From Ginglymostoma cirratum (lineage: Eukaryota), in NCBI GenBank assembly GCA_024137785.1, contig JAHRHZ010000264.1:24790663-24854662 (forward strand): 64,000 bases of DNA. Reading direction: 5' to 3'. Made by a program: the position numbers. Shown piece after piece: positions 36,001-39,000 of the stretch; within the stretch, counting starts at the first letter, position 1; each line of letters starts with the position of its first letter.

Positions 36001-39000
36001 GATGGGTAACTTACTTTTATTAACCAAAGTCTAACCTCTTAAATGGTGTTAGCTTTACTACATGTAGACGAGCCAATAAAATCACCAAGTTTACACAGAA
36101 CAGGCACAGCACGTAAGTTAGCCCACATGTCCACACGAACACGCTGCAAAATCAAATTAGCGTCCCGTTCTCTACATTCCACCAAGTGTGGCAAGTTTTC
36201 ACTTTTGTAAACTATCCAAACCCCTTTTCAAAGCTGTAATTGAATTCACATCCACAATACTCCATAGAATCATAGAACGCTACCACAGTGTGGAAGCAGG
36301 CCATTCAGCCCACTGAGTTCACACCAACCCTCTGACGAGCAGCCTATCCAGAACCATTCCACTATCCTATCCTTGCAATCCCGCATTTTCCATTACCTAG
36401 TCAGCACAACTCTGGACATTATGGACAATTTAACATGGCTAATCCATTTAATCTGCACATCATTGGACTGTGGGAGAAAACTGGAGTATCCAGAAGAAAC
36501 CCACGCAGACATGGGGAGAGAATGTGCAAACTCCACACAGGCAGACAGTCAACCAAGGATGGAATCAAACCCGGGTCCCTACTGCTGTTAAAAGTGGAAG
36601 TCAGCTGAGGGCAGGGTTAACTGGAGGGAAGCATCAATAGCAGGCTAGAGTAGAGTAAGAGAATGGGGTGGGCAGAAATGGATGCAGACAGGGGTCACCT
36701 GGTAGTGAGCCAGCTGACTCCCCACCAGCTCTGGCTGGTCATCTGCACAGGGTTCTGGTTGCAGCCATCTTTGGCTGTGTGCTCAAAGTTGAGGTCACCC
36801 TGGGGCTGAGAGCCTCCCCAACAGCCCCTCTGCCAAAACTAGTCACTGGGCTGGAGGAGCTTAGATTCTCCACCCCCACCATCCCATGCCCAAACCGGAG
36901 GGCTACTCCTCTGAATAAGCAGCAGCAACCATCCTACTACCTCAAGAAGCGACAGTAACTTAATACAGTCCTTTCCCTTCTGAATTACTAGAAATTTTTA
37001 ACTCGCACAACCAACTCCCAAGATGCCTAGAATTGGTAGCTCAATCAACAAAGACTGAAAAAACAAAAATGGTTGTGCTACATACCCAAAAGCGAAAAGC
37101 AGATGTTGCCATTTATTTGCAAGACTTGGATGAAGTTACAGAAGTGTAGACTGCAAAACTATATGAAAAGGTGGCCTGCAGGAATACCGTCGCCAACTGT
37201 ATTAATCCATACAGACCCCATACAACAACATGCACAAATCCAGATGACATGGTTATATCAAATTCTACTAGTTATGTGCAGTACAGGTTCAAAGATGTTT
37301 TAGCCACTCCAAATAGAGCTTCACCATTACCAGCATTCTGCTCTTGCAACCCAAGATGAGAGCTGTTCTTTTCAACTGGTTAATGGAGGTCTGTGAAGCC
37401 TACAAGCTAGACAGAGACACTTTATTTAGCCCAGAACTTTTTTGATAGGATTACGGCAACACAACAAAATGTTGCGAAGCCTCAAGTACAGCTTACCGCT
37501 ATTTCAACTTTATTTATTGCTGCAAAGCTAAAGGAAATTTAGTATTAGTCAGTCCTAAATCTGCACTAGTTTGCCTACGTTACTGATGGAGTTTGCTCAG
37601 AAGATTAAATCCTTAACATGGAACTTGCCATCAGGACAAATGCTAATTGCTCACTGGATTAAAAAAATTCTCTTACGCAACCATTGTTCCTTTGGCCAAC
37701 CAACTTCAGCTATTGCTCTCCAGTTCCCGACCCTCTGCCAACATAAGCAGTTTTTTCTCTAATTAGTTCATAGGTTATGCGTTGAGAGTCTAGGTGAGAT
37801 ACATTTTAAAAGCAGGGAATCAATGCTGGCACTGTACACAGAAATACAGCACTGAGAAAAGGAATTGACTAAGAAAGAGTGTAAAGGATGCTATCTGAAT
37901 ATTTGCAATAAAAAAAAGTTTCCAGTCTTTAAATACATTTGAGAATACGCATCTAAGGGAGACAAGTGAAATTTCAGTTAGAACTAGAATTTCAACGTGC
38001 TTCAGTAAACAAAATTGTTATTACTGCTGGCATGTATAATGGTTAAAAGTCTTCTACTGATCTAGGAAGAAAACTGGTTGGTTTTATTTCTAGGAAAAAT
38101 ATTTTAAAAGTTGTCCAGTCTGAAAATAAGTCTCACAATCCAGTTGCAGTTTAGCTTAGCAATTTCATTTAAAACAGAAACCATTGCTAATAGTACGTTT
38201 ATATTAAAACGTTGCTTGTGGAAGGAACTACAACCAAATCAGTGACACTGAAATACAAATCAAGTGCTCAGACCATCATCAGCTGGAGATTATTTTCACC
38301 TATTTGCAATCAACAGCTGCTGAGTGTCAAGACATTAGCAATGTCTAATACATTAACAACAAGTTACTTGGGGATCAAAAACGTAGCCAACTGCGTTTCT
38401 GATTAGTAAATATAAAATGTAAGTATTATTGGCAATGTGATCTCACAAACTCATTTGTATGGTATCTGCATGTTCACAAAATGGCAAAATGAAAAGCAGA
38501 GATATTTTGAGATTGTTTTGAGCGCTCTACTTTTCACTGAATGATGGCTGACACTTGTTAAGTAATTATTATTATATGAAGTTAATTTATTTGTATTGTG
38601 TACAAGCTGTTTGCCCCAAAACTAATATGTGGTTAGCACTGCCAACACAGACATGTTTGGGCCAAATCAGCTATTTGAATTGGATTGTAGCATAAAATCT
38701 GATGCCATAAATCATCATTTTCCAAACTTGACCTACAATGCCACATAAGATAGGGATGCTGCTAGTAGTTATTAACAGATTTCCACATGACTTTTCTTTA
38801 AAAAAAAAAGTAATGCCACTCTTACTCTTAAATTCACCTCAGAGAACGCAGGGACAATTTTAAAAAAGGACCAGTTGCTTCACTGAGACTTGACTCATCA
38901 TTTTCTCCACTACATGAAAGATACTGTCCTCGACTTGCCAATAATGTCAACACATTTATTTAGTAATCAGAAAAGCAGGTTGACATTTCAATTCCAAGAG

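What the first reader, a model, noticed from the sequence alone, without database searches (positions are those of the whole stretch)
36095..37765. Head-to-head SINE/mRNA chimera: possible twin priming on two different RNAs
Seen: an old CR1 remnant appears split by a 1.37-kb insert made of a minus-strand SINE (tail at the left junction, A-box lost) fused 5'-to-5' with the plus-strand CCNE1 fragment (internal end at the right junction). Inference: one target end primed on SINE RNA, the other internally on CCNE1 mRNA, and the two cDNAs were joined. This would explain the retained 5' end and missing poly(A), and would be a route for mRNA capture in CR1-dominated genomes. No clear TSD was seen. 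Two independent insertions plus a deletion remain possible.
Basis: partly seen in the sequence, partly recalled or inferred. Interest (0 to 1): 0.7.

Follow-up and report, generated by a model that had tools for sequence, protein, structure and literature searches.

The report
Dead cyclin-E1 retrocopy beside shark SINE
A broken, intron-free copy of the first half of a shark cyclin E1 gene lies head-to-head with a short mobile element, but the evidence that the two entered together into an older element does not hold as first described, and how they arrived stays open.

Summary
The two main parts are real. A minus-strand tRNA-type SINE (36263-36594) has lost about 45 nt of its head. A plus-strand, intronless, disabled copy of cyclin E1 residues 1-233 (37023-37632) has no poly(A). 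They face 5'-to-5' across 428 GC-rich bases of unverified origin.

The left piece (36095-36262) is a CR1/L2-type LINE 3' end. The right flank (37636-37800) is no more LINE-like than random windows.

Instead, a 19-of-20-nt direct repeat sits at 35948-35967 and 37652-37670, the right copy just after the CCNE1 break (anchored p about 0.002 to 0.025). It would bound a 1,684-bp block holding 127 unassigned nt, the LINE piece, the SINE, the spacer and CCNE1.

So the SINE tail is not at an insertion boundary, which argues against priming on SINE RNA.

Most likely this is one old retroposition event primed inside the CCNE1 mRNA. The SINE and LINE piece were either carried in the same transcript or added as a second cDNA. 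Independent insertions remain a strong rival. The parent gene and empty site could not be checked.

The parts
35948..35967 (.). Left copy of the direct repeat CACTGAATTAAAAAGAATTC. Candidate target-site duplication.
   Evidence: It matches 37652-37670 at 19 of 20 positions with one 1-nt gap. The 14-nt core occurs without mismatch only at these two sites in the 64 kb.
35968..36094 (.). 127 AT-rich bases of unassigned origin between the left repeat and the LINE 3' end. Read on the minus strand they end in AATAAAAT.
   Evidence: Sequence read. No other copy in the window. No LINE or SINE profile hit.
36095..36262 (-). 5'-truncated 3' end of a CR1/L2-type LINE (end of ORF2 plus 3'UTR). It abuts the SINE tail directly.
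   Evidence: nhmmer places 36258-36126 at profile positions 129-271, E 1.9e-4. Local score 24.75 against a null of 12.2 +/- 2.0. The ends at 36095 and 36262 were set by eye from the sequence.
36263..36594 (-). tRNA-derived SINE. It lacks about 45 nt of its head (A-box region). A B-box-like motif lies at 36561-36571. Its 3' part is homologous to the LINE 3' end.
   Evidence: E 1.4e-95; tail matches the LINE profile, E 4.2e-5; no head further right. ARAGORN and Rfam find nothing.
36595..37022 (+). Spacer. It is GC-rich (0.50-0.59) from 36600 to 36920, then AT-rich up to the ATG. Putative CCNE1 5'UTR, unverified; strand assumed.
   Evidence: Composition. No repeat, SINE, RNA-family, Pfam or protein match.
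37023..37632 (+). Intronless, disabled copy of cyclin E1 residues 1-233. It has an early frameshift after MPR and an 88-nt gap (residues 110-138) at 37341. It has a further frameshift near 37415-37430, a 3-codon insertion, and in-frame stops at 37147, 37540, 37546, 37567 and 37606.
37633..37651 (.). 19 unassigned bases between the last clear CCNE1 identity and the right repeat. The first 6 nt could be the last two codons of the exon that ends VV(L/M)K.
   Evidence: HMMER aligns 37633-37641 without any identities. The exon boundary K235|A236 is inferred from gaps in predicted isoforms.
37652..37670 (.). Right copy of the direct repeat CACTGGATTAAAAAAATTC.
37671..37800 (.). Not LINE-like by any test. 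GC is about 0.42. Origin unknown.

Best explanation
The locus holds one old retroposition product of about 1.68 kb (35968-37651), bounded by a 19-of-20-nt target-site duplication.

Mechanism:
- The right-hand target end (minus strand, 3' end ...AATCCAGTG) primed reverse transcription inside a spliced CCNE1 mRNA. The priming site was at or within two codons of the junction between the exon ending VV(L/M)K and the next exon.
- cDNA synthesis ran to the 5' part of the RNA.
- No poly(A) was involved, so the enzyme was not working in the L1 poly(A)-dependent way.

The SINE and the LINE 3' piece lie inside the block. They are neither the target nor a freshly primed SINE RNA. There are two variants for how they got there:
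- (a) They were old elements upstream of CCNE1 and were carried, antisense, in a long leader of the same transcript. I give this about 0.25.
- (b) They are the 3' end of a second RNA polymerase II transcript, or of the CCNE1 3'UTR. This was copied from the left target end and joined 5'-to-5', that is, twin priming. I give this about 0.20.

Shown: the parts, their orientation, the dead intronless CCNE1 copy, the lack of poly(A) and the direct repeat.

Inferred: that the repeat is a TSD, that the spacer is 5'UTR, the priming site, and the choice between (a) and (b).
For: Direct repeat:
- Score 14 against shuffles of 9.8 +/- 1.2. 0.4% of 1000 shuffles and 0 of 82 real window pairs at the same spacing reach it.
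- With the right anchor fixed just after the CCNE1 end, 6 of 2787 random anchors reach it.
- The 14-nt core is unique to the two sites in the window.
- No comparable repeat links the CCNE1 end to the SINE head or the spacer.

CCNE1 copy:
- It crosses three exon junctions, inferred from gaps in predicted isoforms, without any intron.
- It ends at about 37632, with no A-run after it.

Ages and elements:
- The SINE (39 of 223 private differences) is not younger than the retrocopy (72-73% amino-acid identity to the nearest sharks, which calibrates to at most about 13-14% nucleotide divergence). The LINE piece is much more decayed than 8 other copies in the window. This fits old elements being carried along.
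- The SINE ends exactly where the GC-rich block starts.
- The minus-strand left end carries AATAAA 2 nt from the boundary. That hexamer occurs 69 times on the plus strand in 64 kb.

Precedent: twin priming is described for L1, for mRNA retrocopies and for antisense chimeras (passages read in PMC2912911, and PMC13174262).
Against: - The repeat was found after the fact. With a cheaper gap-extension score its anchored p rises to 69 of 2763, or 0.025.
- The repeat is A/T-rich.
- The left copy does not coincide with any independently recognised element end. The 127 nt next to it are unexplained.
- No poly(A) or microsatellite tail lies at either end.
- The spacer is not shown to be CCNE1 5'UTR.
- Variant (a) needs an unusual leader of about 1 kb.
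- Variant (b) needs either a rare two-template event or, on one RNA, a large internal gap. That is unlike the classical L1 inversion, as I recall the model.
- A weak in-frame resemblance to the cyclin E1 C-terminus (S.CSPVP....T at 37705-37743; 28 of 2032 single-frame null windows as high) lies beyond the right repeat. If real, it would mean the copy continues past the proposed boundary.
Confidence: 0.45

Rival explanations
1. These are independent insertions in a repeat-rich region. A 5'-truncated LINE copy, a 5'-truncated SINE and a 3'-truncated CCNE1 retro-fragment arrived separately. The true 5' end of the CCNE1 fragment may lie anywhere in 36595-37015. The 20-nt repeat is chance, and later deletions may have trimmed the junctions.
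For: - The window holds at least 9 other LINE 3' ends and 2 other SINE copies, so neighbours of this kind are expected.
- The spacer is unverified and could be native DNA.
- The repeat's p value depends on scoring, from 0.002 to 0.025.
- No TSD is seen for any single element, as expected for copies about 15% diverged.
Against: - The right copy of the repeat starts within 20 nt of the CCNE1 break. 0 of 82 real window pairs reach its score.
- The SINE tail abuts the LINE piece exactly, and the SINE head abuts the GC-rich block exactly. Separate events do not predict this.
Confidence: 0.3
2. A 1.37-kb insert (36264-37650) split an old CR1. One target end primed on SINE RNA at its tail. The other primed inside CCNE1 mRNA. 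The two cDNAs were then joined.
For: - The geometry fits twin priming, and the SINE head is truncated at the junction.
- The left flank is a LINE 3' end in the right orientation.
- The ages are not markedly different.
- Antisense chimeras have been ascribed to twin priming in mammals (PMC13174262, passages read).
Against: - The right flank shows no LINE similarity by DNA, protein or profile tests that detect the left flank.
- There is no direct repeat at these junctions.
- The only significant repeat puts the LINE piece inside the insert.
Confidence: 0.05
3. This is an ordinary, complete processed pseudogene of an exon-skipped CCNE1 mRNA. After VV(L/M)K it jumps to the last coding exon (37639-37745). 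It then runs through a short 3'UTR to AATAAA plus A8 at 37905-37918. The SINE is only a neighbour.
For: - Single-frame match to SRCSPVPSGILT, with 28 of 2032 null windows as high.
- GC stays near 0.42 up to about 37820.
- The CCNE1 break lies at an exon boundary.
- An AATAAA followed by an A-run is present.
Against: - The cyclin E1 profile gives no hit beyond 37641.
- The six-frame test is not significant: 71 of 500 shuffles and 20 of 188 windows score as high.
- The frameshift-tolerant alignment is not significant either: 13 of 192 score as high.
- The A-run belongs to a local repeat with about 192-nt spacing.
- No repeat flanks 36590-37918.
Confidence: 0.05
4. The partial cDNAs were captured by another route. 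One option is template switching inside an LTR retrotransposon particle. The other is ligation of stray cDNA fragments into a double-strand break.
For: - The copy is partial, lacks poly(A) and is 3'-truncated, as described for LTR-mediated retrocopies (PMC5131818, abstract and passages read).
- Several unrelated pieces lie end to end.
Against: - A six-frame Pfam scan of 34000-40300 finds only Cyclin_N (plus one weak Slx4 hit, E 0.028) and no gag, protease, reverse-transcriptase or integrase remnant.
- A repeat of about 20 nt is, as I recall, too long for an integrase duplication.
- Break repair does not predict a 20-nt duplication.
Confidence: 0.07

Closest known systems
5'-inverted (twin-primed) L1 and mRNA retrocopies of mammals (model of Ostertag and Kazazian, recalled; Kojima 2010, PMC2912911, passages read)
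   Same: Two segments lie in opposite orientation and meet 5'-to-5'. The inverted segment ends at an internal RNA position next to the target. A duplication of 10-20 nt flanks the whole.
   Different: There is no poly(A) at the end of the other segment. The two segments are not neighbouring parts of one known RNA. The genome is a shark's, with CR1/L2-type LINEs. The microhomologies cannot be read without the parent sequence.
Antisense chimeric LINE-1 insertions with tRNA, 5S rRNA or mRNA, ascribed to twin priming (PMC13174262, passages read)
   Same: Two different RNAs in opposite orientation within one insertion.
   Different: In those cases one partner is always LINE-1 itself, with its poly(A). 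Here the partner would be a transcript carrying an old SINE and an old LINE piece. According to that paper, the antisense mRNA partners did not include a first exon. Here the CCNE1 start is retained.
LTR-retrotransposon-mediated partial retrocopies (Tan et al. 2016, PMC5131818, abstract and passages read)
   Same: A partial, poly(A)-less, 3'-truncated copy of a spliced mRNA, joined to unrelated retroelement sequence.
   Different: No LTR-element coding remnant lies within 2 kb on either side. The flanking repeat is about 20 nt.
Ordinary processed pseudogene
   Same: Intronless, disabled by stops and frameshifts, and located away from any other cyclin E1 sequence in the window.
   Different: It lacks the 3' 44% of the coding sequence, the 3'UTR and a poly(A) tail.

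Membership tests
Processed pseudogene / retrocopy of CCNE1 | Derived from cyclin E1 rather than another cyclin | tested here: met
   The best named relatives are shark cyclin E1 proteins (72% and 70% identity over the N-terminal 95 residues; 57-73% over 170-199 aligned residues in 11 species). PDB hits to cyclin E1 have E of 1e-9 to 1e-11, against 1e-3 or worse for cyclin A2, except one A2 chain at 6e-5.
Processed pseudogene / retrocopy of CCNE1 | Exon junctions fused, no introns | tested here: met
   Boundaries were inferred from gaps in predicted isoforms. They lie after residue 33, after about residue 54, and at E203|E204. All three lie inside uninterrupted matches. The parent gene structure itself was not seen.
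Processed pseudogene / retrocopy of CCNE1 | Poly(A) tail at the 3' end | tested here: not met
   The match ends at about 37632 inside the coding sequence, and no A-run follows. The A8 at 37911-37918 is not linked to CCNE1.
Processed pseudogene / retrocopy of CCNE1 | Flanking target-site duplication | tested here: inconclusive
   A 19-of-20-nt repeat lies at 35948-35967 and 37652-37670, with p of 0.002-0.025. Its left copy lies 1 kb upstream of the ATG.
Twin-primed (5'-inverted) retrocopy | Two segments in opposite orientation within one TSD-bounded insert | tested here: inconclusive
   The orientation is shown. That both lie in a single insert rests on the candidate repeat alone.
Twin-primed (5'-inverted) retrocopy | Both segments come from one RNA and are near-adjacent in it; the 3' segment ends in poly(A) at the target | tested here: not met
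   The left segment shows no cyclin E1 coding similarity and has no T-run at 35968. Whether it is CCNE1 3'UTR could not be tested.
Twin-primed (5'-inverted) retrocopy | Microhomology at the internal priming site and at the inversion junction | not testable with these tools
   This needs the nucleotide sequence of the parent mRNA and the SINE consensus. Neither is available.
tRNA-derived SINE with a LINE-type tail (SacSINE1/Deu-like; the name is recalled and not tested) | tRNA-like head with A and B boxes | tested here: inconclusive
   A B-box-like motif is present, but the A-box region is absent. ARAGORN and Rfam find no tRNA. The two other copies keep a longer head.
tRNA-derived SINE with a LINE-type tail (SacSINE1/Deu-like; the name is recalled and not tested) | 3' part homologous to the partner LINE 3' end | tested here: met
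   The LINE profile hits the tails of all three SINE copies (E 4.2e-5, 1.3e-4 and 2.1e-4).
CR1/L2-type LINE, as the split target of the insertion | Both flanks are collinear parts of one LINE copy | tested here: not met
   The left flank matches profile positions 129-271. The right flank scores at the null mean by DNA and protein tests and gives no profile hit. CR1 against L2 was not resolved. The ORF2 C-terminal motif matches unnamed CR1-like proteins. PMC5499810 (passages read) names an L2 as the partner of a shark SINE.
LTR-mediated retrocopy | Flanked by discontinuous LTR-retrotransposon sequence | tested here: not met
   A six-frame Pfam scan of 34000-40300 finds no retroelement domain. 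Non-coding LTR sequence could not be tested.

The most novel reading that the evidence does not exclude
A single retroposition event in a shark genome, by a reverse transcriptase that needs no poly(A), made two cDNAs from the two ends of one staggered break on two different RNAs. One RNA was a transcript end carrying an old SINE and LINE piece. The other was CCNE1 mRNA, primed internally. The two cDNAs were joined 5'-to-5', leaving a duplication of about 20 nt. This would be two-template twin priming outside mammals and outside LINE-1, and a route to capture the 5' halves of mRNAs.
Probability: 0.15. Interest if true: 0.6.

Novelty: new member of a known kind. Interest (0 to 1): 0.35.

Why it matters
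Genomes dominated by CR1/L2-type LINEs are thought to make few retrocopies, because these enzymes recognise their own 3' ends rather than poly(A). That statement is recalled background, not read here.

A preprint I read in passages (10.64898/2026.06.26.734816) nevertheless counts 14,081 retrocopies across its cartilaginous-fish genomes.

A clean case of a poly(A)-less, internally primed and TSD-bounded mRNA copy would show how such genomes capture gene sequence. If the left part proved to be a second template, it would extend two-template twin priming beyond LINE-1.

If the parts prove independent, this is ordinary repeat clutter around a dead pseudogene.

Tried and rejected
- SINE head extending to about 36640: not supported.
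- A second degenerate SINE in the spacer: none found.
- Spacer as protein-coding sequence or a known RNA: no Pfam, protein or Rfam match.
- Spacer minus strand as the CCNE1 C-terminus (classical inversion of coding sequence): only chance-level tblastn hits with E of 2.8 and 5, and no HMMER hit.
- Right flank as CR1. By eye I saw motifs such as LKLVGQR and REFF, but every statistical test was null.
- CCNE1 continuing into the next exon or the last exon: not significant. The single-frame p was 0.014.
- Poly(A) at 37911-37918: this A-run is part of a local repeat, and no flanking repeat supports it.
- Extending the direct repeat leftward through AGGACAWAT (35936 and 37633): the aligner did not take it up.
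- A single LINE copy as nhmmer query did not link to the flanks. The 8-copy profile was needed.
- ORF 13469-13789 with a sub-threshold UBL_AVO1 hit: it has no PDB relative and was dropped.
- No tandem array in 35800-38600.
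Full report
SETTING. It is AT-rich, with GC near 0.36. Its repeats and its cyclin E1 copy point to a shark. The nearest named proteins are cyclin E1 of Hemiscyllium ocellatum and Stegostoma tigrinum. None of the collections I could reach holds eukaryotic genomes. The parent CCNE1 gene, the orthologous site and a curated repeat library therefore stayed unchecked.

THE SINE. The interval 36263-36594 on the minus strand matches two other copies in the window, at 60819-61113 and 8929-9301. 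Its 3' end (GTTCTATGATTCTATG on the minus strand) lies at the left. A B-box-like GGTTTGATTCC lies at 36561-36571. About 45 nt of the head seen in the other copies is absent. The sequence further right shows no head similarity (p 0.24 and 0.72). ARAGORN and Rfam report nothing. The 3' part of all three SINE copies matches my profile of LINE 3' ends, so this is a LINE-tailed SINE. From memory it resembles the SacSINE1/Deu type described in sharks. I did not test that name. PMC5499810 (passages read) assigns that family's tail to an L2 LINE.

THE CYCLIN E1 COPY. I searched it piece by piece, each piece being one contiguous reference in one frame.
- Pfam Cyclin_N matches with E of 1.5e-6 and 2.2e-10.
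- PDB cyclin E1 matches with E of 6e-10, 1.4e-11 and 1.3e-5.
- A profile of 13 named cartilaginous-fish cyclin E1 proteins gives three hits: positions 2-113 at 37018-37350 (E 4e-41), 140-170 at 37341-37433 (E 8e-12), and 164-237 at 37411-37641 (E 2e-27).

The ATG is at 37023. The defects are as follows.
- An early frameshift follows MPR.
- An 88-nt gap removes residues 110-138.
- A further frameshift lies near 37415-37430.
- There is a three-codon insertion.
- There are five in-frame stops.

Gaps in predicted isoforms mark exon boundaries after residue 33, near residue 54, at E203|E204, at K235|A236 and at E280|L281. The copy crosses the first three without any intron. Real identity stops at ILNMEL(AI), about 37632. 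That is two codons before the K235|A236 boundary. Nothing beyond that point matches the profile.

No statistics for a full-length corrected model are therefore available.

THE SPACER. The interval 36595-37022 is GC-rich (0.50-0.59) up to about 36920, then AT-rich. It has no other copy in the window and no SINE similarity. It has no RNA-family match and no Pfam domain. Its 99-residue ORF has no protein relative. A decayed CpG-island 5'UTR would look like this, but that is inference.

THE 'SPLIT CR1'. I collected LINE ORF2 C-termini with a search seeded from the copy at 61170-61370. I then located eight LINE 3' ends in the window and built DNA and protein profiles from them.
- The left flank is a LINE 3' end. 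36258-36126 (minus) aligns to profile positions 129-271 (E 1.9e-4). Its local score is 24.75 against 12.2 +/- 2.0 for 666 null windows, of which 0.15% score as high.
- The right flank (37636-37800) should carry positions up to about 128. It scores 11.0 against 11.7 +/- 1.7, with 69% of null windows as high. At protein level it scores 36 against 32.3 +/- 4.7, with 18% of 332 as high. It gives no profile hit.

By eye I had seen plausible motifs in the right flank. The tests say they are chance.

FLANKING REPEATS.

The repeat finder listed CACTGAATTAAAAA at 35948 and CACTGGATTAAAAA at 37652. Extended, the match is 19 of 20 with one gap, at 35948-35967 and 37652-37670. Its significance depends on the test:
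- 0.4% of 1000 shuffles and 0 of 82 real window pairs at the same spacing reach its score.
- With the right anchor fixed to the 58 nt after the CCNE1 end and a 704-nt search space on the left, 6 of 2787 random anchors do as well.
- With a cheaper gap-extension penalty the figure is 69 of 2763.
- The 14-nt core has no other exact match in the window, and ten matches at up to two mismatches against about 4 expected.

The similarity does not extend into the insert on either side. I take this as a probable, not certain, target-site duplication of a 1,684-bp block, 35968-37651.

WHAT THE BLOCK IMPLIES. From left to right the block holds:
- 127 unassigned AT-rich bases, which read on the minus strand end in AATAAAAT;
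- the LINE piece (minus strand);
- the SINE (minus strand);
- the spacer;
- the CCNE1 copy (plus strand);
- 19 unassigned bases.

The SINE tail is 296 nt from the left boundary. Priming of SINE RNA at the target is therefore not what the structure shows.

The CCNE1 cDNA must have been started from the right-hand end, inside the mRNA and without poly(A). The left 0.62 kb has two possible origins.
- It may belong to the same plus-sense transcript, as a long leader running through old antisense elements upstream of the promoter.
- It may be a second cDNA made from the left end and joined 5'-to-5', that is, twin priming.

Three points favour the second origin. The SINE stops exactly where the GC-rich block begins. 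An AATAAA lies 2 nt from the left boundary on the minus strand, and that hexamer occurs only 69 times on the plus strand in 64 kb. The geometry also fits.

Three points favour the first origin. It needs one template only. The SINE is not younger than the retrocopy. The LINE piece is far more decayed than other copies, as expected for passengers that were already old.

I cannot separate the two origins with the data at hand.

AGES. In 223 ungapped columns of the three SINE copies, this copy has 39 private differences (17.5%). The other two have 17 and 36. The retrocopy is 72-73% identical in amino acids to the two nearest shark cyclin E1 proteins over 199 residues. A neutral-mutation calibration puts that at no more than about 13-14% nucleotide divergence. 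Both figures are crude. Three copies do not make a consensus, and the parent's own change is included.

OTHER READINGS.
- A copy that continues past 37641 into the last exon has weak support in one frame (28 of 2032 null windows as high). It has none in six frames, none with the profile, and none with a frameshift-tolerant alignment (13 of 192 as high).
- The A8 at 37911-37918 sits in a local repeat spaced by about 192 nt.
- LTR-mediated capture (PMC5131818, abstract and passages read) would explain a partial, tail-less copy. However, no retroelement domain lies in 34000-40300.

WHAT IS KNOWN.
- Twin priming and 5'-inverted L1, Alu, SVA and mRNA copies with TSDs of 10-17 nt and junction microhomology are described in PMC2912911 (passages read).
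- A 2026 paper proposes twin priming for antisense chimeras between LINE-1 and tRNA, 5S rRNA or mRNA (PMC13174262, passages read). The idea of two templates is therefore in print for mammals.
- My three literature searches listed no SINE/mRNA head-to-head case in fishes.

VERDICT. The parts are real and the arrangement is unusual. The specific mechanism proposed is not supported. A single retroposition event bounded by a newly found repeat is the best reading, at moderate confidence. Independent insertions are the main rival.

Noticed in passing
window 14028-14380(-), 19040-19388(+), 33252-33598(+), 47353-47725(+), 49211-49587(-), 58149-58510(+), 59314-59703(+), 61086-61430(+); weaker at 20513-20677(+), 24312-24422(+), 5535-5595(-): There are at least eight clear 3' ends of CR1/L2-type LINEs (ORF2 C-terminus with the FF..RVV..WN.LP..VV motif, plus 3'UTR) and three weaker ones. 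No reverse-transcriptase ORF of 70 residues or more is present anywhere in the window.
   Followed up: partly
window 8929-9301(+) and 60819-61113(+): Two further copies of the same SINE family. The first has a 20-nt internal tandem duplication (CGTGGGACCCAGATTCAACA-like, about 8978-9017). The second lacks the B-box region and lies directly upstream of a LINE 3' end in the same orientation.
   Followed up: partly
window 37341: The CCNE1 copy lacks 88 nt (residues 110-138), which shifts the frame. This could be an exon-skipped or cryptically spliced template RNA, or a later deletion. The exon map needed to tell these apart was not available.
   Followed up: partly
window 36262/36263: The complete 3' end of the SINE abuts the 5'-truncated end of the LINE piece with at most 4 nt between them, in the same orientation. 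This is the pattern expected from an end-to-end template jump of a reverse transcriptase. It could also arise from an insertion at that exact point.
   Followed up: no
window 37913-37984 and 38106-38175: Two segments spaced by about 192 nt share a 34-mer (71% identity) and a 15-mer (87%) in register. This is a decayed local duplication or two copies of a small repeat. Tandem Repeats Finder reports nothing here.
   Followed up: partly
window 37705-37743: In the frame of the CCNE1 copy the sequence reads SYCSPVPDPLPT. This resembles the conserved SRCSPVPSGILT near the cyclin E1 C-terminus. It is significant only in a single-frame test (p 0.014).
   Followed up: yes
window 13469-13789(+): A 107-residue ORF gives a sub-threshold Pfam hit to the AVO1/SIN1 ubiquitin-like domain (E 2e-4, 21.5 bits against a cut-off of 27). 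It has no relative among solved structures and is probably spurious.
   Followed up: partly
window 14001-20000: A stretch with raised GC (0.42-0.43, against 0.33-0.40 elsewhere apart from the bin holding the finding). It holds several LINE fragments and was not examined further.
   Followed up: no
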